The position numbers and the translations under genes are program-made. From an uncultured virus (IMG/VR IMGVR_UViG_3300031566_004355) (lineage: Duplodnaviria; Heunggongvirae; Uroviricota; Caudoviricetes), in IMG/VR virus record IMGVR_UViG_3300031566_004355: 64,000 nt of DNA. The stretch is one strand, 5' to 3'. The notes under the pieces are model-generated. The model made no database searches. It saw nothing but the letters and a program-made list of their open reading frames with translations, and was not told the DNA's origin. Shown here piece by piece: positions 1-29,807 of the stretch (positions are counted from its first letter, which is position 1; each line of letters opens with the position of its first letter).

Positions 1-176
1 CTCTGGCACCCATCCACTCAGCACTCTCTCACCCACACACACCTGCAGCACAGAGAGGTTCTCTCGGAGAGGTTCGTGTGCCTATAGCTCACACGTTCAT
101 AGTATGTCCGTGGTACAGTTGTTCAGACCTGTACTGTGTCGCTCACCAAACCTTCTTCCGAACTCGGGGTGGGTTT
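1..176. other. Palindrome-rich non-coding left end; candidate genome terminus or replication origin
   Basis: Short inverted repeats GAGAG/CTCTC (53-65), CGTGTG/CACACG (75-95), GTACAG/CTGTAC (113-134), AAACC/GGTTT (148-176); direct repeat GAGAGGTTC at 53 and 67; lies directly upstream of the PolB operon. Confidence 0.4.
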
Positions 177-219
177 CTACCAGGATGTGCGTGTGGGCGC
201 GAATATAATATGGTATAAT
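177..219 (+). promoter_or_regulatory. Promoter P1: upstream box CTACCAGGATGTGC plus extended -10 TGGTATAAT
   Basis: GATGTGC 184-190, TATAAT 214-219, 23-nt gap; same architecture at four other operon starts. Confidence 0.75.
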
Positions 220-228
220 ATGGGTAGG

Positions 229-651
229 ATGGTGAACCGTGATGTCGTAGAGCTGTATAATATCGTTACGTCGGAGCCGGAGGGCCCAGACCACCGTGAG
301 GCGCGTCGTCTTACCCGTGCGTATATTCGTGAGATGTCGCCTGATGCTGTGCAGCGTGTCTGGGATAGACGTGCGGAGATTGAGGAGCGTGAGTTAGAGG
401 TGTTCTTTATGCGTAAGGAGGTGTTCATGCGTTTGGGGTTCATGGAGGCTGAGGCTGGGTTCTTTGCGCGGTGTAGGTTGAACAGCCCAGGTATTCGGAC
501 GCTCCTCAAGGAGCGTGTGCGGATTACACAGTACGCTACGGCAGAGGAGATAAAGCGCATAAACGTGGGTAGTCGTGGGACGTTAAAGGGCTTAACGAAG
601 CTTTACGGCGAAGGAGGCTTGTATGCCACGAGGAAGACCATTAGGGCGTAG
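229..651 (+). CDS. Hypothetical Arg-rich protein, paralog of the next gene; candidate terminal protein or PolB accessory factor
   Basis: Shares GFxEAE-x8-(N/S)SPG-x6-ERxR with 623..910; start moved from 136 to ATG 229 because P1 lies inside the longer ORF. Confidence 0.6.
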   Translation: MVNRDVVELYNIVTSEPEGPDHREARRLTRAYIREMSPDAVQRVWDRRAEIEERELEVFFMRKEVFMRLGFMEAEAGFFARCRLNSPGIRTLLKERVRITQYATAEEIKRINVGSRGTLKGLTKLYGEGGLYATRKTIRA

Positions 652-910
652 GCCGTCTGGGGAGGCTCTTGCGCGTCTCAAGACGTATCGTGTCTTGAGG
701 CTGCGTGCGGAGGGGTTTACTGAGGCTGAGATACGAGTGTACATGGACCGGAGGATTTCGTCGCCTGGTATGTTGCAGCTTCGACGTGAGCGTGCGAGGG
801 AGATTAGGGGGCTTTCGTCTGTGGAAATTGAGGAGTGGCGTGACCAGATGTATGAGGCCTACGATGAGATGTACGCTGCGGATAATTTGAGAAGGGTTTC
901 TCCGGATTAG
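623..910 (+). CDS. Hypothetical Arg-rich protein, paralog of 229..651; candidate terminal protein or PolB accessory factor
   Basis: SD AAGGAGG upstream; motif RLRAEGFTEAEIRVYMDRRISSPGMLQLRRERAR; stop is 2 nt before the polB start. Confidence 0.7.
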   Translation: MPRGRPLGRRPSGEALARLKTYRVLRLRAEGFTEAEIRVYMDRRISSPGMLQLRRERAREIRGLSSVEIEEWRDQMYEAYDEMYAADNLRRVSPD

Positions 911-912
911 GT

Positions 913-2646
913 ATGAAGGTACTGGATGTTGAGCTTCCTAGTGCCTACAGGAAGCACGGAGTGTCTGGGCGACTGGTTGTAGGCGTTGATTGTGAGTCGC
1001 TCACTACTGGGTATGCTTTTCTGCTCTGCGACTCGCGGGGTCGGTATACTTGGATTCGGTCGTTCGACGATGTGTTGACGTTCTTCAACCACGATGTCTA
1101 TGCTTATTGTATGCTGGTGTCGTTCAACATGAACTTCGATGCTGGTGTGATGCTGAAGTGGATGGGTAAGGAGTTGTGTACGAAGCTTGTCAACGAGCAT
1201 CGAGTTTCGCTGCCGACGTGTAACATAGAGTACATTCCTGGTAAGTACTTGCAGTTTCGCTTTGGTAACAGGTTCGTGCGTGTCTTTGATATAGCACAGT
1301 ACTTTCAGGGGTCATTGGACTTCAACGCTAAGATGTACTTGGGGCAGGCTAAGAAGGTTGTCAAGGATAAGATGTTTACTGAGGCGGACTATGGGCGTGT
1401 GAGGCTCGCTGAGTACTGCGAGTGGGATGCTGTGCTTGCTGAGGGTCTGGGTAAGTATGTTGTGGAGGCGTTCAGTAAGTTGGGTGTAGAGGTGTGGACG
1501 TTGGCGAGTCCTGCTGCAATTCTGGAGACTTATATTATCGACCAGCAGTTGATACGTAATCCTGTTCATTCAGTGCCTAAGGGTGCGTTGGAGTTGTCGA
1601 TTAAGTCCTTCAATGGGGCGTGGTTTGAGAACTTCAAGGCTGGTACGTTTCCGAGGACGTATCGTTATGACTTAGTTAGCGCGTATCCGTACGTGATAAG
1701 GGACTTAGTTGACTTGAGTCTTGGACGTTGGAGTGACAGCTTGAAGCGACCTAAGGGGGCGATGTATGGGCGGCTGGAGGGTGTTGTGACTGTACCAAAG
1801 TCGCATATCTCGCCGATAATGTTCCGGAATGAACAGGGTGACGTTTTGCACCCTCATGGTTCCTGGCCGACTTGCATTGCGATGCAGGAGTATGATTGGC
1901 TTTTGGAACACGGCGGCAAGATGGACGTTTGGAGTGCGCAATGGTTTGTCCCGTTTGCTAAGGTATGTAAGTACGAGGGGGTCGTTAACAAGTTCTTTGC
2001 GGTTAAGCGGAATGCGGCGGCGGACTCGATGGAGCGGTGGTCTGCTAAGATTGCGCTCACGGGCATGTACGGTAAGTTCTTGCAGCATCGTGGTGGAGTT
2101 GGTGGACGTTTGTACAATCCGGTGTACGCGTCGGAGATAACTTCGCAGGTGAGGTTGATGTGCGCAGATGCTTGTATGCAGGACCCCGACAACGTTATTG
2201 CAGTGATGAGTGACTGTGTGACTTCTATGAATGCACTGTCGCTACCTCTGGGTAAAGAGATTGGACAGTGGAGTAAGCAGGGTCCTAATGCGTCGTTGTG
2301 GATTGGACCCGTACAGTACGAGGCTGAGGGTCAGGACTACCGGTTCCGTCGAATTCCGTGGCGGAGTTTGTTGGAGTCTGCTCCTGGAGATGTTGAGTAT
2401 GACGTGGTGAGACATGGCCCTCTTAGTCTGGTACAAGGGGTCGTACAGAATAGATTTGATGACGTTGGGGTGTTTGTGGACATTCCTCTGACTTTTAACA
2501 TCCGAAAGCTGAACTGGCGGAGGTTTTGGCCTGAGCGGCCGAAGTGTGGTCGGGACTTACTGACTCGACAGTACGATAGTAGACAAATCCATGTTACGTC
2601 GAGGCTTAAGCCCGAGGACATGGTGCTTTGGGCTATGGACGGGTAG
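913..2646 (+). CDS. polB: Family B DNA polymerase, protein-primed-like clade, divergent
   Basis: ExoI DCE, ExoII FNMNFD, ExoIII YCEWD, motif A YDLVSAYP, motif B KIALTGMYGKF, motif C-like VMSDC; 577 aa, similar in size to phi29-type enzymes. Confidence 0.85.
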   Translation: MKVLDVELPSAYRKHGVSGRLVVGVDCESLTTGYAFLLCDSRGRYTWIRSFDDVLTFFNHDVYAYCMLVSFNMNFDAGVMLKWMGKELCTKLVNEHRVSLPTCNIEYIPGKYLQFRFGNRFVRVFDIAQYFQGSLDFNAKMYLGQAKKVVKDKMFTEADYGRVRLAEYCEWDAVLAEGLGKYVVEAFSKLGVEVWTLASPAAILETYIIDQQLIRNPVHSVPKGALELSIKSFNGAWFENFKAGTFPRTYRYDLVSAYPYVIRDLVDLSLGRWSDSLKRPKGAMYGRLEGVVTVPKSHISPIMFRNEQGDVLHPHGSWPTCIAMQEYDWLLEHGGKMDVWSAQWFVPFAKVCKYEGVVNKFFAVKRNAAADSMERWSAKIALTGMYGKFLQHRGGVGGRLYNPVYASEITSQVRLMCADACMQDPDNVIAVMSDCVTSMNALSLPLGKEIGQWSKQGPNASLWIGPVQYEAEGQDYRFRRIPWRSLLESAPGDVEYDVVRHGPLSLVQGVVQNRFDDVGVFVDIPLTFNIRKLNWRRFWPERPKCGRDLLTRQYDSRQIHVTSRLKPEDMVLWAMDG

Positions 2647-2655
2647 ATGTGAGCT

Positions 2656-2698
2656 CTAGTCTGATGTGCTAGCGTTTAGGTGAAACCTATGGTATAAT
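2656..2698 (+). promoter_or_regulatory. Promoter P2: box CTAGTCTGATGTGC plus TGGTATAAT
   Basis: GATGTGC 2663-2669, TATAAT 2693-2698, 23-nt gap. Confidence 0.75.
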
Positions 2699-2704
2699 AT
2701 GGGT

Positions 2705-2824
2705 ATGATATGGGAAGTGCCGAGAGACACGATGTTCTGGTTTACGGTCAGTATTGTTGCGTTTTTGTTGGTGTGGTCGATTGTGATGTTGGTTGGCATG
2801 CGCAAGTTCGGAGGTGGGAAATGA
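2705..2824 (+). CDS. 39-aa single-TM membrane peptide, probably leaderless
   Basis: MIWEVPRDTMFWFTVSIVAFLLVWSIVMLVGMRKFGGGK; ATG 7 nt after the -10 hexamer; stop overlaps the next ATG (ATGA). Confidence 0.55.
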   Translation: MIWEVPRDTMFWFTVSIVAFLLVWSIVMLVGMRKFGGGK

Positions 2825-2982
2825 CGACAAGCTCGCCTATTCGTAAGGTTCACGACGTTCCGATTGTTAGGCCTGTGCGTACGTGTACGCCCCGGCAGTT
2901 GCCTAGTCCAGATGAGCGTACGTGGGTTCCTGTTATGCCTTTTGTGCCCGACAGGGAGAAGGTGAAGGTTGAAGCCAAATAA
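2821..2982 (+). CDS. Small Pro-rich hypothetical protein
   Basis: SD GGAGGTG upstream of ATG 2821. Confidence 0.5.
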   Translation: MTTSSPIRKVHDVPIVRPVRTCTPRQLPSPDERTWVPVMPFVPDREKVKVEAK

Positions 2983-3751
2983 GGATAGAGAGCGCGAGTT
3001 GGAGCGCGAGTACATACTTCAGGGCATGAGTTACAAGCGAGCTCGTAGTCAGGCCAAAGCGCGGTACGTGCGTGAGTATGTGGGGTATCTAAGGATTGAG
3101 GACCCTACGGAGTATGCACGTCTGCAGAAGATGCTCAATAATACTGACTTTGCGGAGTCGGAGCGTCAGCGACGTGAGCGTGAGCGTTACCTCGAGGTGC
3201 ACACTCGACGAGAGCGTGCCCTGAGGGCTTTGGTTGATGTTGGATTGCCGCTACCCTTCATAGCTGCTGACGATTTTGTGGCGTTTAGGTCCTGGACGAT
3301 TAATGGGGGTGGTAGGATACAAGGTGTTGGTGCTGGTTCGGGCTATGAGTGGAAAGAGGTTAACTTCGCTGATTGTGTTCCAACGGAGTGGAACCAGCAC
3401 GGCTTCTACTGTTGGCGTATCAATGCTCAGACTCTAGTTACTGGGGGTATCGGAGGGTACTTTGATGGTAGGGCTGCGGGTTTGGTAGCGTTGAGTGGTA
3501 AGATAGTGGAGCATGCGGATGGTGTTCTCAGGGCCGAGTGTGCTAGGATTCGGTGCATTTGGTACTTGCCTAACGTTCCTGCCGACGCGTATCTTGAGGT
3601 TCCGTGGCTTAGAGCGGCGTACCCTACGACACCTCTGTTTGTGACTACTAAGGCTCGCGCGGCTGATGCGTTGCTTAGGATTGCAGTAATGCTCGAGTGG
3701 CGCGACGGTGAGGACTTTGTTGAGAGCTTTGGAATGCGAGGTCAGCGGTGA
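2969..3751 (+). CDS. Hypothetical phage-type protein (HGFY...GxIVEH...RA motif)
   Basis: 260-aa ORF; N-terminal coiled coil, C-terminal motif pattern I associate with uncharacterised phage proteins. Confidence 0.6.
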   Translation: MKPNKDRERELEREYILQGMSYKRARSQAKARYVREYVGYLRIEDPTEYARLQKMLNNTDFAESERQRRERERYLEVHTRRERALRALVDVGLPLPFIAADDFVAFRSWTINGGGRIQGVGAGSGYEWKEVNFADCVPTEWNQHGFYCWRINAQTLVTGGIGGYFDGRAAGLVALSGKIVEHADGVLRAECARIRCIWYLPNVPADAYLEVPWLRAAYPTTPLFVTTKARAADALLRIAVMLEWRDGEDFVESFGMRGQR

Positions 3752-3913
3752 GTGGTAAGTGGATAGTGTTAATAGGTGCGGTAGTAGGCCTCCTACTGTA
3801 TTGGGCTCTAGAGTTGCTGGGCTGTCCGTTTTGGGCGTGTCTGCTCGGTGGCGTTGTGTCGACTGGTGTTGTTAGTATGGTTGTTGTGCGTATCGCGAGT
3901 CGCGTGGAGAGGA

Positions 3914-4114
3914 ATGAAGAGTAGGTTTGCGAAGCTGGCTGTTATGCTGGGCTTGATGTTGCTAGTTCTGGTTGGCTTTAGCATCCTGCTGTCGGCTCCG
4001 AAGGTGGCTATTGTCGGTGCGTGTTTATTGCTTGTGACTGCGTTGGGCATTGTTTTGGGAGCGCTTGCGATAGTGTGGTGGGGTATAGTGATGAGATATG
4101 ATGAAGGTGATTGA
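3914..4114 (+). CDS. Small 2-TM membrane protein
   Basis: Hydrophobic ORF with GGAGAGG upstream of ATG 3914. Confidence 0.5.
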   Translation: MKSRFAKLAVMLGLMLLVLVGFSILLSAPKVAIVGACLLLVTALGIVLGALAIVWWGIVMRYDEGD

Positions 4115-4276
4115 TGCCGGATAACGGGCTTCATTACCATCCAGCTCGCCGGTTGCACTGCCGTAAGTGTGGCTGCACAAAGTTTCACGACCGTAGCTCG
4201 TCGTTGCGACAGTGTGCTAACCCTGCCTGTGGTAAGTTCTACAGGACGAGGGAGCTTTATAGATAAGGAGGTAGGT

Positions 4277-4741
4277 ATGTCGGACACGGAAAGGTTAACT
4301 TCGGAGGTATGCTTTGAGTTGAGGCGGACTCACGAGGAGTTTGAGAGTCTCATGACTAGTGCATTCAGGACTCTAGGCCTTACGGTAGAGCAGTTTAGGG
4401 TGCTTACGGTTGTATGTGACAAGGGACCTGTGAATGTGAGTGACATTGCTCGGCGACTGTCGCGTAGTCCTAACAGTGCTACTATGATAGTTGACCGTAT
4501 GGTCAAGACTGGTTTGGTTAGGCGGGTGCGTCTTGGTAGGGACCGCAGGATAGTACATGTGTTTCCTACGCGACGTGCGGAGGCGGTCTTGCCTGCGGCA
4601 ATGGCAAAGAGTCATGAGCTTACTCAAGCGGTCTCAGTGGCGTTGCAGGACGAGGCCAAGCAGACTCTTGTCGAGTTGCTTGGACGGTTGCAGTGCAGGA
4701 TGGTCGAGTTGCGTCCGCGATTTGGCTGGGACAAGAAATGA
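4277..4741 (+). CDS. MarR-family winged-helix transcription regulator
   Basis: GLTVEQFRVL...VSDIARRL...TMIVDRMVKTGLVRR...DRR; SD AAGGAGGT. Confidence 0.85.
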   Translation: MSDTERLTSEVCFELRRTHEEFESLMTSAFRTLGLTVEQFRVLTVVCDKGPVNVSDIARRLSRSPNSATMIVDRMVKTGLVRRVRLGRDRRIVHVFPTRRAEAVLPAAMAKSHELTQAVSVALQDEAKQTLVELLGRLQCRMVELRPRFGWDKK

Positions 4742-4962
4742 AATCTTTGGGAGAGTGTGAGCAGAGAGACTATGAGCGCCAGCAGATAATCCCGAAGGCG
4801 GTAGAAGCTGCTGACAGAATCATACTGGATGGTTCGGATGGGAGTGTTGAGGAAACTGATTGGTTTACATCTGAGGTAGCTAAGAAGTTTGTTGAGAAGG
4901 TAGGCATTGCAATGTCTGCTAAGTTAACTCATAAAGATTTAGAATAAGGGAGGTATAGAACT

Positions 4963-5619
4963 ATGAGGTTATTTGAGACGAGGAAGGATAGGTGGCCTAG
5001 ACAGGCTGGCAAAGCAGTACTAGAGTATGAGCATACGGGTGAGCCGGTTAGAGAGGGAAATAAGATTATCATACCGGATGACGGAAGAGTTGAGCTTTTC
5101 AGGCTCCAGAAGGGCTGGAATCAGTTTCTGGTAGGTCTTGGAGAGAACTCTTTGTGGTTCGGGGGCACGGACGAGAATCCCTTCTTGGTCAGGCTTGGCT
5201 CAGACGTCTTTGATGAATTTGTCCAGAGCCCTAAGGGGTTCTACTCACTGCTTGTACCCAAGTTGATTAGGAACTTACAGGAAAAGTTCCCGTCAGTAAC
5301 GTATGTGAGGCAGGGGGATATATTTGCATTTCCACTTCCGTATTCCTGGGAGGAGCTGGAGAAGGCTTTCAATATCTGTCACTGGTACACACTAGCTTAC
5401 AAGGAGGTGAAGAAGGCCGAGTTGATGTTGTTTGGGACTAGGCACACGCTCAGTGGTGTTAACCTTGTAGTTGGTGAGGAAAGTGGCTTCTTTAGGGGTC
5501 TCGTTACTCAATTAGTGGAGGGGACAGTGAATGCACCCGACCATACAACTAGGGTACTTGAGGGTCCTCACGTTATTGCGCAGACTGCACATTTATATTC
5601 TCCCAAGGAGGCGGACTAA
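4963..5619 (+). CDS. Hypothetical protein with RQGD...H...H motif
   Basis: YVRQGDIF, GTRH, APDH; SD GGAGGT. Confidence 0.6.
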   Translation: MRLFETRKDRWPRQAGKAVLEYEHTGEPVREGNKIIIPDDGRVELFRLQKGWNQFLVGLGENSLWFGGTDENPFLVRLGSDVFDEFVQSPKGFYSLLVPKLIRNLQEKFPSVTYVRQGDIFAFPLPYSWEELEKAFNICHWYTLAYKEVKKAELMLFGTRHTLSGVNLVVGEESGFFRGLVTQLVEGTVNAPDHTTRVLEGPHVIAQTAHLYSPKEAD

Positions 5620-6209: not shown

Positions 6210-6220
6210 GGAGGAACCAT

Positions 6221-6418
6221 ATGCTAGAGCATTATGACGCCTACATAGTCGATTCTAAGGGTGAGTCTTGGGGGGCGAGTTTAGGTCGAGAGAGTTCTGA
6301 GGAAGCAGAGAAGTGTGCTCGAGAACATTTGAGTCGTAGGCTTGGGGCTGAGTTGAACTACAAGCCAGCGAAGCTCGTGATTTTCAAGTGTGTGTCTGTT
6401 TCGGAAGTTTCTTTGTAG
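6221..6418 (+). CDS. Hypothetical protein
   Basis: SD GGAGG, ATG start, fits operon. Confidence 0.55.
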   Translation: MLEHYDAYIVDSKGESWGASLGRESSEEAEKCAREHLSRRLGAELNYKPAKLVIFKCVSVSEVSL

Positions 6419-6434
6419 ATAAGGGGAACGGAGA

Positions 6435-11947: not shown

Positions 11948-12150
11948 GACGTTTAGGGTCGGTGATAGAGTTCGGGTTAAGGCGTGTAGTAGGAATGCCG
12001 GAGGCGTGTTTGCGGGTAGGATGGGTGAGGTGATACGTGACGACTATAGTGGTCATTACCCCTACTTGGTGTCGTTCTCGGCTCTTAACTCACGGCACAG
12101 GCCTTTCTGTGCCGCCGAGCTAGAACTGGTTGAGAGGCCTGGAGGTACTG

Positions 12151-12891
12151 ATGGACAAGTTTAACTGCATACTTTATGGAGAGAGTGGGGTTGGTAAGAC
12201 TCCCTTTGCTGGAACACTTCAGATGTGGGAGAAGACCAAGCCCTGTTTACTTTTAGACGTGGATATGGGAGCTATGAGTCTCGGCAGCTTGGAGGAGAAG
12301 CCTGTTGTGCTTCCAGTAGAGACCTGGCCCGAGATGGCTCAGGTTTATGACTACTTTAAGAGGGCTGCTTGGGACGAGTTGGCTGGGTACATATCCAAAA
12401 AAATGGGTATTGAGGTTCCAGTATTAGAGTATAGGAGTGTGGTTATAGACTCCGGTACGGAATTGGAATACAAGCTTCGTATTGGGGTAGTAAAGGCTAA
12501 CGAGAAGGGAGACGGGGAGGTTCCTTCTCAGCCCGATTATCTTAGAACGCAGGAGCGCTTTCGTAGGATGTATAGGCTCTTTAGGGACTTGCCGATTAGC
12601 CTTGTTATGACTGCGGGGCTTCGGGAGCTCAAGGAGGAGTCTACGGGAATAATTAAACGGAGTCCCGGCTTTCAGCCGTCTTTGTCGCACGACCTAGTTC
12701 GGATGACGGACTTGGTTGTTTATATGGCTGTGACTATGTCTGGTGTGGGCTCGGATGCTAAGTGGACGAGACACTTAGTCACGAGTCTTTCGAATCGATT
12801 CATTGCCAGAGACCGCTCCGGTCAGTTAAAGCCAGTATTAGAGGGCGAGAAGTTCTATTGGAAGAAAATTCTCGAGAACGTGTTAGTCTAG
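12151..12891 (+). CDS. AAA_24 / Sak4-like ATPase (recombination)
   Basis: ILYGESGVGKT, VVIDSGTE, IARDRSG; adjacent to SSB-like gene; SD GGAGGT before ATG 12151. Confidence 0.85.
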   Translation: MDKFNCILYGESGVGKTPFAGTLQMWEKTKPCLLLDVDMGAMSLGSLEEKPVVLPVETWPEMAQVYDYFKRAAWDELAGYISKKMGIEVPVLEYRSVVIDSGTELEYKLRIGVVKANEKGDGEVPSQPDYLRTQERFRRMYRLFRDLPISLVMTAGLRELKEESTGIIKRSPGFQPSLSHDLVRMTDLVVYMAVTMSGVGSDAKWTRHLVTSLSNRFIARDRSGQLKPVLEGEKFYWKKILENVLV

Positions 12892-13539: not shown

Positions 13540-15408
13540 GTGAGATGTGTGACTACTAAAGTGCGCGAAGTTAGTTTAGCAGACACTTCTAAGGCCTCGA
13601 ACTCTGGTCGCCGCCTCAAGACGAGCGTATATGTATCGGGTAGAGGGTCTGCTCCATATATTATTCCTAAGGAAGTTGAGTTCGACTGTAGTGGGACTCG
13701 TAAGGAGTGTCCGTTGTGTCCGTTGGTAGGAGGTGCGAAGGGTCTCGAGATTGTTGCCTCTAACCGGAACATCCTCAACCTCCTAGGTAAGGCGGATAGT
13801 ACGGTAGTCAAGTACATAAGGTCTTGGGCAGGTGCGTGTGACAAGGCGCACGTTCACATCATGAGTACTCAAAATGTCGAGGAGCTGAGAGTTAGCCCTC
13901 GGATGGAGACGTTTCTTCCCTCTGCGGAGTATGTTACCCGCGAGTGCCTCTATCTCGGGCACGGACTTTTACCTAATCGTCCGTACTCCATTGAGTGTTT
14001 TTGCTACCCTGACCCGACTAGCCAGCGTGCTGTGCTAGTGTCTGATAAGGCGATGCCCTTGAGGGATATGCTAGAGACCTTCAACTTCCAGAAGTGTAGG
14101 GAGTCTCTCGAAGTTTTCAGGAAGAGTCCGGGAGAGCTGTTTGACGAGCTGTATGCGGACTTCGTGTCTAATGTGCATCACATCGTAGGTCGGCGGGCTT
14201 TGCAGATAGCCTTCGACCTCGCGTTCCATAGCGTTCTCGAGTTCAAGTTCCAGGGCGTGAAGTTGCGCCGTGGCTGGGTCGAGGCGTTCATTTTGGGTGA
14301 TAGTGGTCAGGGCAAAACTGAGATGAGTTTGTGCTTGCTGAATCACTACAGTTTGGGAGACAGGATTCAAGGGGAAGGTGCCAGCACTGCTGGGCTCATA
14401 GGCGGGCTTGAGAAGCTCGGCGAGAGGTGGATACTTGTTTGGGGGAGAGTCCCTCAGATGGACAAGCGTCTATTGATTATCGACGAGTTCTCGGGACTTA
14501 GTGAGGAGGACGTAGCTAAGCTGAGCGACATTAGGTCTACAGGTATTGCGGAGATAACCAAGATTAGGACGGAGCGTGCGAGTGCTCGGACTCGTCTTGT
14601 GATGATGTCCAATACTCGTGACGGTCAGCCTTTGTCGACGTATAACACGGGTGTAGAGGCTCTGAAGGGAGTATTCGGACACGCCGAGGACGTGCGTAGG
14701 CTGGACTTCGCGGTCTGTGTTGCGAGTGGGGAGTTGCCTGCAGATGCTTTTAATGCTATTCAGGAGAGTGTGCCCCACAAGTATACTGGGGAGTTGTGTC
14801 GTAACCTAATTTTGTGGGCCTGGTCGAGGTCTGTCGACGATGTTGTTATTCCTGAGGATGTTACTCAGATGATTCTGACGCGCGCTTCGGAGCTCTCAGG
14901 GATGTATAGCTCATTCATTCCGCTTGTGGAGCCTGCGGACATGCGCGTCAAACTGGCGCGGCTCGCGGTTGCTTGCGCGTGTAGGTGCTTTTCCTCGGAC
15001 GAGTCTGGCCGAGTGTGTGTGATGCTGGGACATGTTAAGTTCGTGTACGAGTTCCTGCGTCAGTGTTACGATTCAGCTTTTATGGCCTATGACACCTACA
15101 GTACTAGAGTCAAGCACGAGTCTGTCTTTGACGACGGGGAATTTGAGAGGGCGCTCGAGGACTTTCGAGCATTGCCCAGGTGTGGAGAGTGTGCAGACAT
15201 CCTGACGCGCTTGGGTAATCCCTTTAGGGGCTACGAGCTTGGTGAGCAGTTAGGCATAGAGTCTTGGGATGTTAAGGAGATTACCCGTTTTCTGTCGCGG
15301 TATCGCATGATTCAGACGTTGCCTGCGGGCTACCGCAAGTTATCCAAGCTCCAGACGTTCCTGAAAAGAATCGACGCTTTGCGTGTCGAGAAGGAGGCGC
15401 GAGGATGA
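13540..15408 (+). CDS. MCM-like replicative helicase
   Basis: Walker A GDSGQGKT, STAGLIGG, Walker B LIIDEF, ARTRLVMMSN, RRLD arginine finger; N-terminal Cys cluster. Confidence 0.8.
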   Translation: MRCVTTKVREVSLADTSKASNSGRRLKTSVYVSGRGSAPYIIPKEVEFDCSGTRKECPLCPLVGGAKGLEIVASNRNILNLLGKADSTVVKYIRSWAGACDKAHVHIMSTQNVEELRVSPRMETFLPSAEYVTRECLYLGHGLLPNRPYSIECFCYPDPTSQRAVLVSDKAMPLRDMLETFNFQKCRESLEVFRKSPGELFDELYADFVSNVHHIVGRRALQIAFDLAFHSVLEFKFQGVKLRRGWVEAFILGDSGQGKTEMSLCLLNHYSLGDRIQGEGASTAGLIGGLEKLGERWILVWGRVPQMDKRLLIIDEFSGLSEEDVAKLSDIRSTGIAEITKIRTERASARTRLVMMSNTRDGQPLSTYNTGVEALKGVFGHAEDVRRLDFAVCVASGELPADAFNAIQESVPHKYTGELCRNLILWAWSRSVDDVVIPEDVTQMILTRASELSGMYSSFIPLVEPADMRVKLARLAVACACRCFSSDESGRVCVMLGHVKFVYEFLRQCYDSAFMAYDTYSTRVKHESVFDDGEFERALEDFRALPRCGECADILTRLGNPFRGYELGEQLGIESWDVKEITRFLSRYRMIQTLPAGYRKLSKLQTFLKRIDALRVEKEARG

Positions 15409-18509: not shown

Positions 18510-19666
18510 TGATGGTACGAGTTTTTTTTGTTCTGGCAATACTTGTCGCTGTTGGGCTCTGTCCTGCAATCGCTAGTGCCGATGAGCCTGTAGAGGTAGT
18601 CTCGAACATTCTGGTGGGTGGAGTAGACTGTTGCGAGTGTGGGTGCGAACCATGTCCCGAGTGTCCTGACATTACTCCTGTTAGTCCCGTAGCCGTCTCG
18701 ACTCGGCTTGTGGAGTCGGTTGGTGAGACGAGTGCTACTCTGATGGGACTGTTGGTGGGTGATGGAGGTGGTGTGTGTTCAGTACGATTTCTCTATGGTG
18801 CGTCGACATCCTATGGCTCTAATACTTTGTGGGAGGATGGTTTAAGAGGCAATGACTCCTTTAGTGCCGAGCTTGAGGGCCTGTTACAGGGTACTGTGTA
18901 CCACTATCGTGCTCAGGCTGGGAACACTACAGTTACTGTTGAGGGCTCTGACGAGACGTTTGCGACGCCTCCAGGAGCTGTGATTGCGCCTGGTGCGACT
19001 CCTAATGTAGGCTCGATTCTGTTGACCTGGATGAAGGGTACTGGAGCTACGAGAACGCTCGTTAAGCGGAGCACGGTGAGTGTTCCTACTACTCCGACTG
19101 AAGGGGACTTAGTCTATTTTGGCCCCGATATGTCTTGTAACGACGCTAACCTAGAGAGTGGTGTAATGTATCAGTATGCTGTGTGGTCCGAGGCCAACGG
19201 CGTCTACTCTACTACTGCTTTGACTGTAGCCACTATGCCTCTGGCGGCTGAGCTGCCGTCCTCGACGAACTGGTGGGGTGCGATTATTGGTATTGGTGGC
19301 ATAATGGCGGTTATTGCACTCTACATCGTCTTCAGGCATCGTCGTCCCGAGCCTCCCCCGCCGTCGCCTACTGTACTTGAGGCTGACAAGGAGCCTTCTG
19401 GTAAAGCTACGTCGGTGTCGAAGCTGCCTAAGGTAAGTGAGAAGAAGGAAACCAAGGAGGAGGTTAAGGAGGTCGCCAAGAAGGAGGAGCCCGAGAAAGC
19501 CTCCGAAGAGGCGCCGCCTGGCGGTTCGGGCTTCGATGAACATGCACCGCCTTGTGCCGTGTGTGGTTCGCGGATTACTCAACTTAACGAGGGTTCCAAG
19601 ACTAAGTATACTTGCATGAAGTGCGGAGCTACGTTCGAGACGCCTACTGAGTCTGGAGATGCTTAA
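18509..19666 (+). CDS. Type I membrane protein with FN3-like domains and a C-terminal Zn ribbon
   Basis: Signal peptide; SATL.G...YG..TSYG...L.GL..GT.YHYRA; TM helix; Pro/Lys/Glu linker; CAVC...CMKC. Confidence 0.75.
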   Translation: MMVRVFFVLAILVAVGLCPAIASADEPVEVVSNILVGGVDCCECGCEPCPECPDITPVSPVAVSTRLVESVGETSATLMGLLVGDGGGVCSVRFLYGASTSYGSNTLWEDGLRGNDSFSAELEGLLQGTVYHYRAQAGNTTVTVEGSDETFATPPGAVIAPGATPNVGSILLTWMKGTGATRTLVKRSTVSVPTTPTEGDLVYFGPDMSCNDANLESGVMYQYAVWSEANGVYSTTALTVATMPLAAELPSSTNWWGAIIGIGGIMAVIALYIVFRHRRPEPPPPSPTVLEADKEPSGKATSVSKLPKVSEKKETKEEVKEVAKKEEPEKASEEAPPGGSGFDEHAPPCAVCGSRITQLNEGSKTKYTCMKCGATFETPTESGDA

Positions 19667-20699
19667 AGAACTGATAGCTGAGGATGTCCAGGAACCTAAG
19701 GTAACCAAGCTCTTTCGAGCTAGTGAGGTAGGGGAGTGCGAGACGTACCTGTGTAGGGTGCTTCTCGGGCATCATCCCTTACCGATGTCTGGCCGCGTGC
19801 GCCATATGCTTGCCGACGGTATTACTCACGAGAAGGATATTGTGGAGCGGCTGGTTCGAGAGGGTGTTGACGTGAAGCACTCGTGTCTCGACTCTCAGTT
19901 GTCTATTGTGTGTGTCGACGAGGGCGATTTGAAGATTCCTGGACATCCTGACGGACTATTGGAGCACCAGCCTTCAGGGTTCGAGCTCGACTACGCTGAA
20001 GAGGGGTTCAGGTACGATCGTGGTACGTACCTGTTAGAGATAACTGCTCCGAATCACTTCTCGTTCCTACGAGTTGAGCGCGACCACATGCGCTCGGCAC
20101 TGTGGCGGAAGTACGTACAAATTCAGATGTACCTGAACTCTGAGGTTATTAAGGAGCGTACTGACTGTTGTGTAGTCGAGGTCAAGAACAAGAATACGTC
20201 CGCTCTCTACGAGGAGGGGGTTGTTTACGACCCGAAGGTCGTACGGGGTGTAATGGATGTGCTGTGTCGCGTACAGGTCCTAGTTGCGAACGGCGAGGTA
20301 AGTCCTTACAGGTGTAAGGACTGGCGTAGGAGCTACTGCAAGTTTCGGCATATGTGTTTCGGTGAGGAGGTAGTAGAGGTTGAGCCTTCTGGTAAGTTCC
20401 TTAGTGGAGAGAGTCTTTCGAATGCTGAGGAGCTCCTACAAGCGGCTGAGCTATGGCTAAAGGGTAAGGATATGGTTGAGTCCGGTGAGGAACTGGTTGA
20501 GGATGCTAGGTCTCTTTTTCGGGCAACCATTGAGGAGTATGGTGCTTCTGGCTTGACTGTAGCGTGCGCTAGGGCTGCTATGATAAATGCAAACCGACGA
20601 AAGATTAGCCTAGACATTTTCAAGGCGAAGTACCCAGAGGCCTATAAGGATATGGTGTACTTGGAGCCGAGTCGGTATGTGAGGGTTACTAAGACATGA
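19659..20699 (+). CDS. Cas4/PD-(D/E)xK-like exonuclease
   Basis: RASEVGEC, G..HE, GHPDG, LEIT, QIQMY, C..W...YCKFRHMC. Confidence 0.75.
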   Translation: MLKELIAEDVQEPKVTKLFRASEVGECETYLCRVLLGHHPLPMSGRVRHMLADGITHEKDIVERLVREGVDVKHSCLDSQLSIVCVDEGDLKIPGHPDGLLEHQPSGFELDYAEEGFRYDRGTYLLEITAPNHFSFLRVERDHMRSALWRKYVQIQMYLNSEVIKERTDCCVVEVKNKNTSALYEEGVVYDPKVVRGVMDVLCRVQVLVANGEVSPYRCKDWRRSYCKFRHMCFGEEVVEVEPSGKFLSGESLSNAEELLQAAELWLKGKDMVESGEELVEDARSLFRATIEEYGASGLTVACARAAMINANRRKISLDIFKAKYPEAYKDMVYLEPSRYVRVTKT

Positions 20700-26958: not shown

Positions 26959-27345
26959 ATGATAGTACCAGACGAAGAGGTAACTTCGGTCCGCACCCTG
27001 CAGCAACGCCTAGGGAGTGTACGAACAGCGCTGTACCAGGGCATCTTACACAAGTCGACTACGGGGCTCTTAGTATCAGAAGAGTGGCTCCGAGATGCCC
27101 TGGAGAAGCGAGTGCTGGAACTCGAGCACCTGATTGTCGAGCTGACGGGCATTGAAGCGGATTGTCATTGTAAGGTGTGTGGTGTAGGCACTGACGGTGA
27201 GGATAGGGTATTCTGGGCCTCGAGTGCGTTGTACATAATCGAGTGTGGTATAAAGCTAGAGCATCTGAGTTCTGGCGACCCTCTTTGTCAGCGCTGCCGC
27301 AGGAAGGCTAAGTTGTACAAGTCAACTGAGGGGATTTCGGCATGA
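26959..27345 (+). CDS. Hypothetical protein with C-terminal Zn finger
   Basis: SD GGAGGT; CKVC...CQRC; ATGA overlap with polA. Confidence 0.6.
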   Translation: MIVPDEEVTSVRTLQQRLGSVRTALYQGILHKSTTGLLVSEEWLRDALEKRVLELEHLIVELTGIEADCHCKVCGVGTDGEDRVFWASSALYIIECGIKLEHLSSGDPLCQRCRRKAKLYKSTEGISA

Positions 27346-29807
27346 AACCCAATGAGTGTTTAGGTTGTGCCCTCTACGACTGTCCGGGACCTGTACCTGG
27401 AGAGTTTACCGACGAGGAGGTTGACGTGGTCTTTGTAGGTGAGGCCCTCGGTGCTGTTGAGGTTCAGCAGCATCGTCCGATGGTAGGTCAAGCGGGTCGG
27501 GTGTTGCGGCATACTATCAAGTACTATATCGAGGACAGGAAGTTGCCTCTACGTTACGGCATAACGAACGTCTGGGTGTGTCGTCCTCCAGGTAACAAGC
27601 TTCCGGAGGATGCCGAAGAGCCAGCTGAGTACTGCCGGAGGCGACTATACGAGGACTTGACAACTCATGGCCAGAAGCTTACAGTACCTCTGGGTAGTAC
27701 AGCTCTGGATACTATAACTAATGTGGGAATGTCGATTACATCGATTCAGGGCCACATGTTCTCGACCGACTACAACGGCACTCGTCTAGTTGTATTGCCC
27801 ATGTTTCATCCCTCGTACTTACGTCGTCACGGCTCGAGTTGGCGCTATTGGGAGTTGGGTTGGGACAAGCTCGAGATGTACATTCGCGACGGCAAGACGC
27901 ACTTCATACCATTCTCGCAACGAAAGGTGCACCATGCGCACTCTCCTGCAGAGGCGTTGCAGTTCCTGAAGCGTATCCGTGAGCTGTCGCGAGAGTATCC
28001 AGTAATGTCGTGTGACGTCGAGACGAGTGCGGGCTATCACCCTTGGGCGGGTGCACGACTACTCTCGGTTAGCATAGCATGGAAGTCTACTGAGTGTGTC
28101 GCGATAATGTGGCACGATATCGAGCACTTTCCTGCGTATGATGAGTTGAAGGCGCTACTCGAAGACCCGAACATAATTTGGCTGTGGTACCAGGGATTAT
28201 TCGACACAGCACACTTTAGGAACGTTGGTATGGAGCCGCGTATCGACAGAGACGGGCTACTCGAGATGCACCTAATAGATGAGCGTCCGAACATTCACGG
28301 TCTTAAGTCTAACTCGTGGCTCTTTTTGGATGCACCTAACTGGGAGGCAGACATTAAGGAGTATGCACCCAAGAAGGAAGACTCGTACGAGAAAATTCCG
28401 CCTGAGAAGCTTCTCGAGTATAACGGTATGGATACCGTGCATACTATTCACTTGTCCGAGGTTGCTCACGACTACTTCGAGCTCGAGGGCTTGACTTGGT
28501 ACTACGATAATATCCTGGCTCCTGCGTACGATATGTTGGCACGGTCGCGATTCATAGGACTGCGGTGTGACTTGTACAGGGTTAAGTCGTTGCAGGGTGA
28601 GATTCAACCCGTGCTTAACGACCTGCACAAGCAGATGTGTGAGGTGGCTGGCGACCCGTTTTTCAATCCTCGGTCGCCTGCACAGGTCAAGGAACTACTA
28701 CACTCAAGGGGTATTATGGTGCCGAATACCCGCAAGGAAGTTCTCGAAGAGTATCTGGGTGACGAGCTGGTCGATGCGATTCGAGACTACCGGGATGCTG
28801 ACAAGATGATGAGTACGTACATTATAGGCGTCGTTGACGATGTGTACGATGACTTGAGGGTACACCCAGACTGGAAGTATCCTACGGAGACTGGAAGGTT
28901 AAGATGCGGCGACCCCAACCTGCTTGGAATGCCTCGAAAGGCCGAGATTGCCGAGCACAAGTGGAAGCGGTTTATCAAGGAGATTTGGGTTGCGGACCCC
29001 GACACACTATTTATGCATATAGACAGGGGTCAGAGCGAAGTGAGGTGTAACGTCTATCTAGCTAAAGCTAAGGACTTTATGCAACGGTTGATTGACGATC
29101 CTACTATCGACATCCATGGCGAGTACGCTACGATGTTATTTGGGCCCGATTTCACCTACGAGCAGCGCTTCCTGGCCAAGATGATAGTAACCTTTGCAGT
29201 CCCGTACGGCGCTGAGGCTGAATCTGTGGCAAGGCGGTTTACGGCTGCGGCTCGTCAGACGGCTCGTAACATAGCCGAGAAGGCTGGGCTTGATCGCAGA
29301 GCCCTCAAGGGCAGTGCAAACCGAGTAGGATTGCAGAATGGTATCGTGTACTATCACGCTTGGACAGTGTTGGAGGCGCGGAAGATTATCAGCGACTTCT
29401 TTGCTAAGATGCCCGAGGTAGACGAGGCTCGTAAGAGATGGAAACATACTGCACTGACTGAGGGTAAGTTGGTGAACTACTTCGGGCGAATTAGGCGGTT
29501 TGGCTTGGTAGCACAGGAGCGTCGCAAGCATGTAGGGAACGAGGCCTACAACTTTCCACCGTCTAGCCTCAGTAACGACCTTAATTTACTGAGCTGTATC
29601 GAGACTAGGCGGCAGTTTGGTAAGTATGGTGTGGAAGTACTCGTGCCGATTCACGACGCGGGACTACTACGGCTTCCAAAACAAGGGGCCGAGCAGTTAG
29701 CTGCGGACATTCAGGGTGTCTGGGAGGCTCTACCTACACAATACTTACATACTGACTTGCCGTTTCCATGTGAGGTAACACTCGGCGAGCGCTGGAGCGA
29801 CCTGTAG
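27342..29807 (+). CDS. polA: Family A DNA polymerase with N-terminal family-4 uracil-DNA glycosylase-like domain
   Basis: UDG: C..C, FVGEALG, VGQAG, TNVWVCRPP, HPSY; exo: DVET, YNGMD; pol: TETGRL, DRGQSEVR, RFLAK..TF...YG, IHDA. Confidence 0.93.
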   Translation: MKPNECLGCALYDCPGPVPGEFTDEEVDVVFVGEALGAVEVQQHRPMVGQAGRVLRHTIKYYIEDRKLPLRYGITNVWVCRPPGNKLPEDAEEPAEYCRRRLYEDLTTHGQKLTVPLGSTALDTITNVGMSITSIQGHMFSTDYNGTRLVVLPMFHPSYLRRHGSSWRYWELGWDKLEMYIRDGKTHFIPFSQRKVHHAHSPAEALQFLKRIRELSREYPVMSCDVETSAGYHPWAGARLLSVSIAWKSTECVAIMWHDIEHFPAYDELKALLEDPNIIWLWYQGLFDTAHFRNVGMEPRIDRDGLLEMHLIDERPNIHGLKSNSWLFLDAPNWEADIKEYAPKKEDSYEKIPPEKLLEYNGMDTVHTIHLSEVAHDYFELEGLTWYYDNILAPAYDMLARSRFIGLRCDLYRVKSLQGEIQPVLNDLHKQMCEVAGDPFFNPRSPAQVKELLHSRGIMVPNTRKEVLEEYLGDELVDAIRDYRDADKMMSTYIIGVVDDVYDDLRVHPDWKYPTETGRLRCGDPNLLGMPRKAEIAEHKWKRFIKEIWVADPDTLFMHIDRGQSEVRCNVYLAKAKDFMQRLIDDPTIDIHGEYATMLFGPDFTYEQRFLAKMIVTFAVPYGAEAESVARRFTAAARQTARNIAEKAGLDRRALKGSANRVGLQNGIVYYHAWTVLEARKIISDFFAKMPEVDEARKRWKHTALTEGKLVNYFGRIRRFGLVAQERRKHVGNEAYNFPPSSLSNDLNLLSCIETRRQFGKYGVEVLVPIHDAGLLRLPKQGAEQLAADIQGVWEALPTQYLHTDLPFPCEVTLGERWSDL

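What the first reader, a model, noticed from the sequence alone, without database searches (positions are those of the whole stretch)
1..2646. Two-polymerase replication system: end-located PolB operon plus internal PolA/MCM replisome
Seen: a self-contained three-gene operon (P1, two paralogous small proteins, protein-primed-type PolB) sits next to a palindrome-rich end. A separate operon encodes PolA, MCM helicase and SSB, with no recognisable primase in the window. Known: protein-primed viruses normally replicate with pPolB alone, while Streptomyces linear replicons use terminal proteins only to patch ends. Inference: PolB and its partner proteins initiate or patch the ends by protein priming and hand over to PolA/MCM for bulk synthesis, which I do not recognise as a described viral strategy.
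Basis: partly seen in the sequence, partly recalled or inferred. Interest (0 to 1): 0.85.

Follow-up and report, generated by a model that had tools for sequence, protein, structure and literature searches.

The report
Protein-primed polymerase replaces primase in phage
A large soil virus with a linear genome keeps a phi29-like DNA polymerase and two small partner proteins right at its repeated genome end, apparently in place of the primase that its relatives carry, while still encoding a second polymerase and a helicase.

Summary
Window 184-2646 is a promoter-bounded unit: two paralogous small proteins (A, 229-651; B, 623-910) and a 577-aa family B polymerase (913-2646). The polymerase folds like phi29, His1 and tectivirus protein-primed polymerases and keeps its exonuclease and polymerase residues. 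Only the "palindrome-rich" end fails (folding z about 0).

New evidence:
- Window 1-92 behaves as an inverted terminal repeat. In four runs it is a dead end that leads either into the PolB arm or into a 9.2-9.7 kb arm of equal depth.
- A-B-PolB is conserved in over 20 metagenomic relatives. Sak4, SSB and an MCM-like helicase lie downstream wherever the contigs reach.
- This helicase lacks the DnaG-type primase domain that its next relatives carry. In 38 such primase-carrying viruses PolB was found in 0, 18 have direct terminal repeats and none has inverted repeats.
- Skew at fourfold sites falls linearly along co-oriented genes, as end-started strand displacement predicts.

Best reading: protein-primed initiation at the ends has replaced RNA priming in a roughly 76 kb genome. 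Hand-over to PolA is plausible (PolB's TPR2 insertion is stunted) but untested, and the terminal protein is not identified. This is a new variant of a known kind; interest is about 0.7.

The parts
1..92 (.). Putative inverted terminal repeat (left copy); the first ~45 nt are C-rich and G-poor, unlike the G-rich + strand elsewhere
   Evidence: in 4 of 4 runs the assembly graph forks at 92/93. Window (3..)63-92 continues either as window 93.. or into a different 9.2-9.7 kb contig of like depth. Nothing of full depth lies before position 1. Composition.
93..183 (.). Unique non-coding spacer between repeat and promoter
184..219 (+). Promoter of the A-B-PolB unit (family-specific upstream word plus extended -10)
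   Evidence: 4 copies in the window, 0 expected; the same word precedes the unit in relatives
229..651 (+). Protein A, 140 aa, helical; shares a ~52-residue domain with B
   Evidence: no Pfam, PHROG or Atlas match
623..910 (+). Protein B, 95 aa: basic N-terminus, five helices, acidic C-terminal half, invariant C-terminal Ser-Pro; candidate terminal protein or origin-binding partner
   Evidence: no structural match
913..2646 (+). Protein-primed-type family B DNA polymerase, 577 aa. Exo I/II/III and motifs A, B, C are kept. A TPR1-like insertion is present; TPR2 is reduced to ~12 residues.
2662..2699 (+). Next promoter of the same type, closing the unit
12130..12891 (+). Sak4-like (AAA_24) ssDNA-annealing ATPase
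   Evidence: syntenic in L025, L032, L035, L037
13058..13507 (+). SSB (DUF669)
13540..15408 (+). MCM-like helicase without the DnaG-type primase domain of its nearest outgroup
   Evidence: (matches positions 382-1012 of a 1028-position PHROG)
19659..20699 (+). Cas4-domain exonuclease
27342..29807 (+). PolA with N-terminal UDG-like domain and 3'-5' exonuclease

Best explanation
The window is the left 64 kb of a roughly 76 kb linear double-stranded DNA virus of a bacterium, with inverted terminal repeats of about 92 bp. Directly inside the left repeat, one promoter drives two paralogous small proteins and a phi29/tectivirus-class family B polymerase.

I propose that this module starts DNA synthesis at both genome ends by protein priming. 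On this reading A or B (or the pair) supplies the priming hydroxyl or recruits the polymerase to the repeat. I also propose that this mode of priming has replaced the DnaG-type primase that related viruses carry fused to their MCM-like helicase.

Replication would then be continuous strand displacement from the ends, with no lagging strand. The helicase would supply the unwinding that this polymerase's stunted TPR2 no longer provides. SSB would coat the displaced strands, and Sak4 would anneal them.

Which polymerase elongates is unresolved. I lean towards a switch from PolB to the ancestral PolA-helicase machine after initiation.

Shown: the anatomy, the fold class, catalytic-residue conservation, the repeat topology, the synteny, the primase-domain loss and the skew gradient. 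Inferred: protein priming itself, the role of A and B, and the polymerase switch.
For: 1. End and repeat. In 4 of 4 runs laid, window 63-92 is followed by two alternative continuations of similar depth (15.8 vs 16.1; 24.8 vs 22.8; 24.2 vs 28.4; 21 vs 19.6). One run's 9,732-nt contig covers window 3-92 and stops there. That is a dead-end node forking on one side, as an inverted terminal repeat gives.
2. Contig ends in relatives. Besides the window itself (228 bp), 7 of 17 relatives' contigs with gene A's start also end 197-291 bp upstream of gene A.
3. Polymerase class. Across 22 sequences down to 21% identity, D76, D253/S256/Y258/P259, K379/Y386/G387/K388 and D434 are invariant. D26, E28, Y168 and D172 are near-invariant. 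One orthologue carries an intein at Exo III.
4. Conserved partners. B was found upstream in 22 of 23 loci holding the PolB start, and A in 21 of 23.
5. Primase loss. About 70 stand-alone helicases (62-100% identity, roughly 610 aa) contrast with the next clade (40-43% identity, 937-985 aa), which carries zf-CHC2 and Toprim domains. In 38 IMG/VR viruses with that kind of helicase, PolB was found in 0 of 38 (19 are at least 90% complete), 18 have direct terminal repeats and 0 have inverted repeats. The same profile does find PolB in G003 and G004.
6. Distant PolB relatives also sit at genome ends. One is in a record classed as having inverted terminal repeats.
7. Skew. At fourfold sites of co-oriented genes, GC skew falls from +0.55 to -0.22 and AT skew rises from -0.54 to +0.10-0.17. 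Spearman rho is -0.68 and +0.66. A linear fit beats the best step fit.
8. TPR2 spacer. It is 12 residues against 29 in phi29. TPR2 gives processivity and strand displacement (PMC2615600, passages read).
9. PolA and PolB together. They share the 75,732- and 69,493-bp contigs, judged by longest-contig lengths.
Against: - No direct evidence of a protein-linked end. The right end itself was not seen; only its graph signature was.
- One 99-nt, half-depth contig in one run puts 25 other letters before window 19. This is unexplained.
- 10 of 17 relatives' contigs depart from the 197-291 bp cluster. 8 of them reach 0.5-1.6 kb further upstream of gene A, with extra small genes; one carries minus-strand genes. 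The distance from the end therefore varies.
- A and B are small for terminal proteins (140 and 95 aa) and match no known terminal protein or fold.
- Two long contigs with PolB and helicase (60,925 and 61,931 bp) have no PolA in the list. PolA may not be an obligate partner.
- PolB keeps proofreading residues, which a mere initiator would hardly need.
- The primase-carrying viruses compared are distant (helicase about 40% identical), not a sister group.
- The skew gradient could also reflect mosaic origin or expression.
- A primase could lie in the unseen roughly 11.7 kb or be borrowed from the host.
Confidence: 0.5

Rival explanations
1. PolB, helped by the MCM-like helicase, is the only genome replicase from initiation to completion. 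PolA serves repair, gap filling or recombination-dependent synthesis with Sak4, SSB and the Cas4-like nuclease.
For: The proofreading and polymerase sites of PolB are intact under long divergence. The helicase could make up for the short TPR2. Two long PolB+helicase contigs have no PolA in the list.
Against: PolA is conserved at 46-100% identity with its motifs kept. In the wider PolA plus primase-helicase group of viruses it is the only polymerase found. Published protein-primed viruses stay under 50 kb (PMC4889955, passages read).
Confidence: 0.2
2. End patching, as in Streptomyces linear replicons. Replication starts at an internal origin with PolA and the helicase and a host primase. PolB with A/B only fills the 3' overhangs left at the ends.
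For: This would be a known division of labour between a telomere polymerase and other polymerases (abstracts of PMC4513846 and PMC3273824, search listing). PolA and the helicase are present.
Against: The ends have no folding potential above shuffles. There is no primase, and the helicase has specifically lost its primase domain. The skew is graded and of the sign expected for displacement from the left end, not a step at an internal origin.
Confidence: 0.1
3. PolB acts as a primer-independent polymerase (piPolB-like). It makes DNA primers de novo for the PolA-helicase replisome, and its place by the end is incidental.
For: The first Asp of motif C is replaced (M-S-D-C here, x-T-D-S in relatives), as in piPolBs. 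The Lys of KxY is not kept, and some distant relatives have a K-T/N-R-G-F word near it (PMC5695915, passages read). It would also explain the missing primase.
Against: The nearest sequences and folds are polymerases of linear viruses with inverted repeats: tectiviruses, His1 and the bottle-shaped virus ABV2. The gene sits next to a terminal repeat. No integrase or pipolin context was seen. The KH-X8-KTRG word is absent in this clade. No piPolB sequence was at hand for a tree.
Confidence: 0.1
4. The A-B-PolB unit is a selfish self-replicating element, or the remnant of one, riding at the end of the virus genome without a role in the virus's own replication.
For: Distant relatives of this PolB occur inside large archaeal and bacterial contigs, so they may be integrated mobile elements. 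Variable cargo genes sit between B and PolB in some relatives.
Against: The unit keeps a fixed place and orientation, uses the virus's own promoter type, and is conserved in over 20 relatives down to 56% identity. It also correlates with loss of the primase domain.
Confidence: 0.05

Closest known systems
phi29 / PRD1 / Bam35 protein-primed replication (terminal protein plus pPolB)
   Same: Polymerase fold over its full length (TM 0.55-0.65 to phi29). The polymerase gene lies in an early unit beside an inverted terminal repeat, with small genes directly upstream, where phi29 has its terminal protein gene.
   Different: The genome is about 76 kb against under 50 kb. PolA, an MCM-like helicase, an OB-type SSB and a Sak4 annealase are also present. 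TPR2 is cut to about 12 residues. The candidate partners are two paralogous proteins of 140 and 95 aa with no likeness to known terminal proteins.
Actinobacterial tectiviruses (Rhodococcus phage Toil, Microbacterium phage Badulia, Streptomyces phage WheeHeim), His1 and Acidianus bottle-shaped virus 2 polymerases
   Same: These are the nearest polymerases by sequence (20-28% identity) and by predicted fold (TM 0.72-0.80). Toil and Badulia also have two small genes just upstream of the polymerase, near the genome end.
   Different: Those genomes are 14-23 kb and encode no second polymerase or helicase in the parts seen. A and B profiles find nothing in them.
PolA plus DnaG-primase-MCM helicase phage replisomes (IMG/VR records G005-G042)
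   Same: The helicase is homologous at about 40% identity. The PolA/UDG profile hits 20 of 38 records, some on the UDG part only.
   Different: They keep the primase domain. 18 of 38 have direct terminal repeats and 0 have inverted repeats. PolB was found in 0 of 38.
Streptomyces telomere patching (terminal protein with a telomere-associated polymerase, then other polymerases)
   Same: A linear replicon in which a dedicated protein-priming enzyme and other polymerases share the work.
   Different: There are no palindromic telomere folds here. The enzyme is a phi29-type PolB. There is no sign of an internal origin, and no primase.
Adenovirus replication (pTP, Pol, DBP, ~100-bp terminal repeats)
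   Same: Repeat length of about 100 bp, strand displacement from both ends, and use of the repeat to restart on displaced strands (recalled knowledge).
   Different: Adenovirus uses a single polymerase and no helicase, and its host and lineage are different.
piPolB of pipolins
   Same: The first Asp of motif C is lost and the KxY lysine is not kept (PMC5695915, passages read).
   Different: The context is a virus end rather than an integrative element. The KH-X8-KTRG word is absent. The nearest relatives are protein-primed enzymes.
Earlier finding of this scan, e1-6042728 (a ~79 kb marine virus with PolA and a phi29-type PolB)
   Same: A large virus with PolA plus a protein-primed-class PolB and suspected inverted terminal repeats.
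   Different: There the proofreading site was reported dead; here it is intact. It is an unchecked AI note, no sequence link to it was found, and it is not independent evidence.

Membership tests
[quoted passage not shown] | Family B fold with Exo I-III and polymerase motifs A, B, C | tested here: met
   D26/E28, N72/D76, Y168/D172, D253, K379/Y386/G387 and D434 are kept. D434 aligns with the second Asp of phi29's DTD.
[quoted passage not shown] | TPR1 insertion between motif A and the fingers | tested here: met
   The model has a beta-rich ~90-residue insertion at 264-354. The motif A to B spacing is 120 residues, like phi29 in alignment A9. Full-length TM is 0.55-0.65 to phi29 and 0.80 to His1. 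No residue-level superposition was inspected.
[quoted passage not shown] | TPR2 insertion between fingers and palm | tested here: inconclusive
   Only about 12 residues (a short hairpin, 391-402) against 29 in phi29 in the same alignment. Some distant relatives have 45.
[quoted passage not shown] | Linear genome with inverted terminal repeats | tested here: met
   Graph topology in 4 of 4 runs. The far end's sequence itself was not read.
[quoted passage not shown] | Covalent nucleotide addition to a terminal protein; protein-capped 5' ends | not testable with these tools
   Needs biochemistry. The complex predictor was unavailable.
Primer-independent PolB (piPolB) | Motif C of the S-x-T-T-D-G type together with the KH-X8-KTRG word (PMC5695915) | tested here: not met
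   This clade has M-S-D-C and R-F-R-R at the corresponding places. Only the loss of the first Asp is shared.
Primer-independent PolB (piPolB) | Carried by pipolins (integrase, direct repeats, plasmid-like cargo) | tested here: not met
   The gene lies in a virus replication module at a repeat-bearing end.
Streptomyces-type telomere patching | Tightly packed terminal palindromes that fold in the 3' overhang | tested here: not met
   z-scores 0.09 and 0.02 against shuffles.
Known terminal proteins (phi29 p3 and the like), for A and B | Sequence or fold likeness to a characterised terminal protein | tested here: inconclusive

The most novel reading that the evidence does not exclude
A primase-less hybrid replisome. 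A terminal-protein-primed PolB starts synthesis at the repeats of a roughly 76 kb genome and then hands the 3' end to a PolA-MCM helicase machine, which completes continuous strand-displacement synthesis. Protein priming would here have evolutionarily replaced a DnaG-type primase domain. This would be the first pPolB-to-PolA polymerase switch. It would also show how protein-primed replication can escape its ~50 kb size limit.
Probability: 0.3. Interest if true: 0.85.

Novelty: new variant of a known kind. Interest (0 to 1): 0.7.

Why it matters
The published survey of viral replication (PMC4889955, passages read) makes two points. Protein-primed systems are confined to genomes under 50 kb. They also use a protein set (pPolB, terminal protein, unusual SSB) distinct from that of RNA-primed systems (PolA/B/C, helicase, primase). 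This virus family mixes the two sets and exceeds the size limit.

Its helicase shows a clean evolutionary contrast:
- primase domain present: direct repeats and no PolB;
- primase domain absent: PolB unit at an inverted repeat.

If confirmed, it shows that priming mode can be swapped within an otherwise conserved replisome. It gives a natural test case for polymerase switching after protein priming. It also offers a phi29-type polymerase with a minimal TPR2 for studying how processivity and strand displacement are shared with a helicase.

In five literature searches I found no described phage that combines pPolB, PolA and a helicase. Those searches cover only the held open-access library.

Tried and rejected
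- Own assembly and the right end. The assembly is not held. The nearest record, G001, is a trimmed copy covering window 136-45932. Exact-word scans of IMG/VR with the terminal word and with the other arm's first letters found nothing. The 61.5 kb relative's far end could not be fetched.
- GenBank phage megablast with window 1-20000: no match. Plasmid tblastn with PolB: no match.
- PDB sequence search with PolB: nothing meaningful.
- Protein B. The Atlas gives only weak MerR-like similarity, from a low-confidence model. Foldseek and VIA give no clear fold. Protein A: no Atlas hit.
- The A/B profile against 1.84 billion representatives gave only 6 hits. Two are ~280-aa proteins that carry the domain twice. 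Their genomic context could not be found in IMG/VR.
- A and B profiles against ORFs of distant pPolB loci, including Toil and Badulia: nothing below E 0.3.
- GTDB genome scan for a host: only 21-28% identical PolBs, no close relative. The host stays unknown. Bacterial-type promoters are the only hint.
- Terminal sequence alignment of the window, L025, L036 and L039: only compositional likeness (C-rich) and a few shared short words, with no convincing conserved terminus.
- The generic sigma-70 scan did not pick up the unit's promoter. The family-specific word did.
- PolA motif C reads HD[AS] instead of HDE. I considered this as a sign of a changed role and rejected it, because 21 of the 22 PolAs compared show no Glu there; the one exception is a canonical Pol I.
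Full report
**What is in the window.**
All sizeable ORFs lie on the + strand. GC is about 0.52, and whole-sequence GC skew is strongly positive on the left and fades to the right. The gene content is that of a lytic virus:
- ThyX, dUTPase and ribonucleotide reductase;
- a 7-deazaguanine pathway (FolE, QueD, QueE, QueC);
- a Sak4-like ATPase, a DUF669 SSB and an MCM-like helicase;
- a Cas4-like nuclease;
- a PolA with an N-terminal UDG-like domain and a 3'-5' exonuclease;
- large proteins with no family match, a block of glycosylation genes, and an SNF2 helicase.

The window's own assembly is not held. The nearest record (G001, IMG/VR, classed 'provirus') is window 136-45932 at 100% identity. 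The exact PolB, PolA and helicase proteins are on record on contigs of up to 75,732 bp. About 11.7 kb of the genome therefore lies outside the window.

**The three-gene unit.**
A family-specific promoter word (GATGTGC(G/T)TG, a spacer, then TGnTATAAT) lies at 184-219. It recurs at 11169, 29910 and 59441, four copies against none expected. A one-mismatch copy lies at 2662-2699, immediately after the PolB stop. The unit is therefore bounded by two promoters of the virus's own type. Their sigma-70-like form suggests a bacterial host.

Gene A starts at ATG 229, not at the GTG at 136, by alignment with 17 orthologues. It gives 140 aa. Gene B (623-910) gives 95 aa.

Neither protein matches Pfam, PHROGs or NCBIfam. 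B has these features:
- it models confidently as five helices (pLDDT 87.2);
- its N-terminus is basic and its C-terminal half is acidic;
- it ends in an invariant Ser-Pro;

A profile of B searched against 1.84 billion representatives finds only six proteins. Two of them are about 280 aa long and carry the domain twice. Their context could not be found.

**The polymerase.**
Pfam's DNA_pol_B_2 scores below its cut-off (E 0.0079), but a PHROG 'DNA polymerase' family scores 8.8e-29. The search of 5.8 billion proteins gave 47 relatives. About 30 are 59-72% identical and of the same length. One carries an intein, inserted at Exo III.

In an alignment of 22 sequences reaching down to 21% identity, the Exo I, II and III residues, motif A (D253 with S-A-Y-P), motif B (K379...Y-G-K) and the catalytic Asp of motif C (D434) are invariant or nearly so. 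The first Asp of the canonical D-T-D is replaced. A paper on piPolB (PMC5695915, passages read) reports that only the second carboxylate is needed.

Structure searches:
- The AF2 model has pLDDT 86.7 and pTM 0.83.
- It matches phi29 polymerase in the first nine PDB rows (E 1.8e-17 to 1.0e-15, TM 0.55-0.65). RNA/DNA-primed PolBs reach only 0.34-0.43.
- Among predicted viral structures the best are His1 (TM 0.80), Streptomyces phage WheeHeim (0.78), Rhodococcus phage Toil (0.73) and Acidianus bottle-shaped virus 2 (0.72).
- The same viruses are the only GenBank phage hits by tblastn (20-28% identity).

All of these are linear genomes held to replicate by protein priming.

The model has a beta-rich insertion of about 90 residues after motif A, which is TPR1-like. 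The stretch between motif B and the next palm helix is 12 residues here against 29 in phi29 in one alignment. TPR2 is therefore rudimentary. According to PMC2615600 (passages read), TPR2 gives phi29 polymerase its processivity and strand displacement.

**The end.**
Four soil-metagenome runs that hold the sequence were laid on window 1-3000 as Logan contigs.

In all four, one contig starts at window 63 and runs on through PolB. A second contig of 9.2-9.7 kb ends with window 63-92 in the opposite orientation. Read on the + strand, window 63-92 is thus followed by a quite different sequence. In one run that second contig covers window 3-92 and stops within two letters of window position 1.

The depths of the two arms agree in every run (15.8/16.1, 24.8/22.8, 24.2/28.4, 21/19.6). 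The structure is a node that is a dead end on one side and forks on the other. That is what an inverted terminal repeat of about 92 bp produces. It is not what a direct repeat or a circle produces.

The 9.2-9.7 kb arm fits into the roughly 11.7 kb missing from the window. Its first letters are G-rich reading inward. That suggests genes transcribed inward from the right end.

One observation stays unexplained. A 99-nt contig at half depth, in one run only, puts 25 other letters before window 19.

**Ends in relatives.**
Of 17 relatives' contigs with gene A's start, seven end 197-291 bp upstream of gene A, as the window does at 228 bp. Several of them start right at the promoter word. Two end nearer (119 and 146 bp). 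Eight reach 0.5-1.6 kb further, with extra small genes; one carries minus-strand genes.

The window, L025 and L036 begin with C-rich, G-poor stretches unlike the rest of the + strand. Beyond a few shared short words the termini do not align. The terminal 140 and 92 nt fold no better than shuffles (z 0.09 and 0.02). 'Palindrome-rich' is therefore not supported.

**Conservation and company.**
In the 23 metagenomic loci that hold the PolB start, B lies upstream in 22 and A in 21. The misses have too little upstream sequence. Some relatives carry one to three unrelated genes between B and PolB.

All four loci that reach far enough downstream (L025, L032, L035, L037) carry the Sak4-like gene and the SSB. 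The three that reach further carry the helicase, followed by QueC. L032, which reaches furthest, also has the Cas4-like nuclease.

PolA lies too far away to be seen in those loci. By the lengths of the longest contigs on record:
- PolB, helicase and PolA share the 75,732- and 69,493-bp contigs;
- helicase and PolA share the 74,728-, 31,057- and 33,368-bp contigs;
- PolB and helicase share the 60,925-, 61,931-, 21,582- and 9,885-bp contigs.

No PolA cluster with a 60,925- or 61,931-bp contig appears. PolA may be absent or too divergent there. This remains open, and it counts against an obligate PolB-to-PolA hand-over.

**The missing primase.**
No primase family was found in the 65 larger ORFs scanned in Pfam or PHROGs, or in a subset scanned in NCBIfam.

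The helicase matches only positions 382-1012 of a 1028-position PHROG family. Its homologues split in two:
- about 70 stand-alone proteins of roughly 610 aa at 62-100% identity, which is the clade found with PolB;
- the next clade, at 40-43% identity and 937-985 aa, with zf-CHC2 and Toprim (DnaG-type primase) domains fused in front.

I fetched 75 IMG/VR loci with this kind of helicase. I searched 38 whole records of at least 40 kb (39 were asked for; one is not held). The results:
- the PolB profile hit 0 of 38, of which 19 are at least 90% complete;
- 18 of 38 are classed as having direct terminal repeats, and none as having inverted repeats;
- the PolA/UDG profile hit 20 of 38.

The same PolB profile does ring in two records with distant PolBs. 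Both carry the gene at the extreme end of a linear genome of 27.5 or 49.4 kb. One is classed as having inverted terminal repeats, and neither has PolA.

The contrast is therefore clean. Where the primase domain is present, the genome has direct repeats and no PolB. Where it is absent, a PolB unit sits at an inverted repeat. The caveat is distance: the primase-carrying viruses are not the sister group.

**Compositional gradient.**
I measured skew at 9,018 fourfold-degenerate third positions of + strand genes. GC skew falls from +0.55 (first 4 kb) to -0.22 (last 4 kb). AT skew rises from -0.54 to +0.10-0.17. Per-gene Spearman rho is -0.68 and +0.66 (p about 1e-9). A straight line fits better than the best single step (residual sums 55 vs 93 and 72 vs 100). 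The zero crossings lie at 45-48 kb.

All these genes point the same way, so gene orientation cannot produce the gradient. An excess of G and T that decays with distance from the left end has a ready explanation. The + strand would be displaced from the left end, and would stay single-stranded longest near that end. An internal bidirectional origin would give a step of the opposite sign.

This is an inference. Mosaic ancestry of the right-hand genes or expression effects cannot be excluded. That adenovirus and mitochondrial genomes show such patterns is recalled knowledge, not checked here.

**How it most likely works.**
Shown: a linear genome end with a ~92-bp repeat signature; a promoter-bounded unit of two paralogous proteins and an intact phi29-class polymerase; its conservation together with Sak4, SSB and a primase-less MCM-like helicase; and a graded strand asymmetry.

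Inferred: the unit primes DNA synthesis on a protein at both ends and has taken the place of RNA priming. Synthesis is continuous from the ends. The helicase supplies the unwinding that the stunted TPR2 cannot. SSB and Sak4 handle the displaced strands, which can restart through the repeat.

Whether PolB or PolA makes the bulk is open.
- For a switch to PolA: the short TPR2, the genome size beyond the published 50 kb limit (PMC4889955, passages read), and retention of the ancestral PolA with intact motifs.
- Against it: PolB's intact proofreading site, and the two long contigs without a listed PolA.

**Rivals.**
They are listed with their odds in the Rival explanations section:
- PolB as sole replicase;
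- Streptomyces-like end patching;
- piPolB-like de novo priming (the clade shares the lost first Asp of motif C and the lost KxY lysine with piPolBs, but not their KH-X8-KTRG word or their context);
- a selfish passenger element.

**Comparison with what is known.**
By fold, motifs and genomic setting the polymerase is a member of the protein-primed PolB class, with one hallmark (TPR2) reduced. The system works like phi29, PRD1 or adenovirus at initiation. It differs in carrying the helicase, PolA and OB-type SSB set that the published survey assigns to RNA-primed systems only.

Five literature searches of the held library turned up no phage that combines pPolB, PolA and a helicase. The subscription literature was not searched.

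Two earlier notes of this scan bear on this. One describes a ~79 kb marine virus with PolA plus a phi29-type PolB. The other describes a linear plasmid with a phi29-like polymerase at its telomere. Both are unchecked leads suggesting that the combination recurs. They are not independent evidence.

**Verdict.**
This is a new variant of a known kind, and the interest score is 0.7.

Noticed in passing
window 1-64000: Skew at fourfold-degenerate sites changes almost linearly along 64 kb of co-oriented genes. GC skew goes from +0.55 to -0.22 and AT skew from -0.54 to about +0.1. The zero crossing lies at 45-48 kb.
   Followed up: partly
window 19-92 (run X1 only): A 99-nt contig at about half the depth of its neighbours puts 25 unrelated letters before window 19. 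It could be a minor end variant, a chimera or a junction form. It matches nothing else in the window.
   Followed up: partly
window 15661-16353, 21259-21642, 23534-24289, 24699-25256: A full 7-deazaguanine precursor pathway (QueC, QueD, QueE, FolE) is interleaved with the replication genes, suggesting modified guanine in the virus DNA. No transglycosylase (DpdA-like) was recognised among the ORFs scanned.
   Followed up: no
window 46414-58639: A block of glycosylation and sugar-modifying genes: GT2 with a GtrA domain, an epimerase, a nucleotidyl transferase, a radical SAM/SPASM enzyme, GT4, a methyltransferase and a TMEM260-like mannosyltransferase. IMG/VR's 'provirus' cut of G001 ends at window 45932, just before this block. 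The virus promoter word recurs after the block at 59441.
   Followed up: no
window 30617-46394: No terminase, portal or major capsid protein was recognised. Proteins of 332, 820, 2039 and 913 aa have no family match, or only weak 'tail protein' hits. A Zot-like P-loop ATPase lies at 42428-43201. The virion type (tailed or tectivirus-like) is open.
   Followed up: no
window 27342-29807 and relatives P0051-P0103: The PolA motif C reads H-D-[A/S/G] instead of the canonical H-D-E in 21 of the 22 PolAs compared. The exception is a canonical Pol I with a 5'-3' exonuclease.
   Followed up: partly
L025:1204-1946, L026:2095-3428, L046:2459-3438, L039:889-1452, L027:1775-2551: Relatives carry one to three unrelated small genes between gene B and PolB, one of them a cytidylyltransferase-like protein. 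This spot is a hotspot for cargo.
   Followed up: no
P0227, P0229 (no locus): Two ~280-aa basic proteins from unknown contexts carry the A/B domain twice. A and B may be the split form of a two-domain protein of terminal-protein size.
   Followed up: partly
P0011 (orthologue of window 913-2646): One PolB orthologue (930 aa) carries a LAGLIDADG intein inserted at the Exo III motif.
   Followed up: partly
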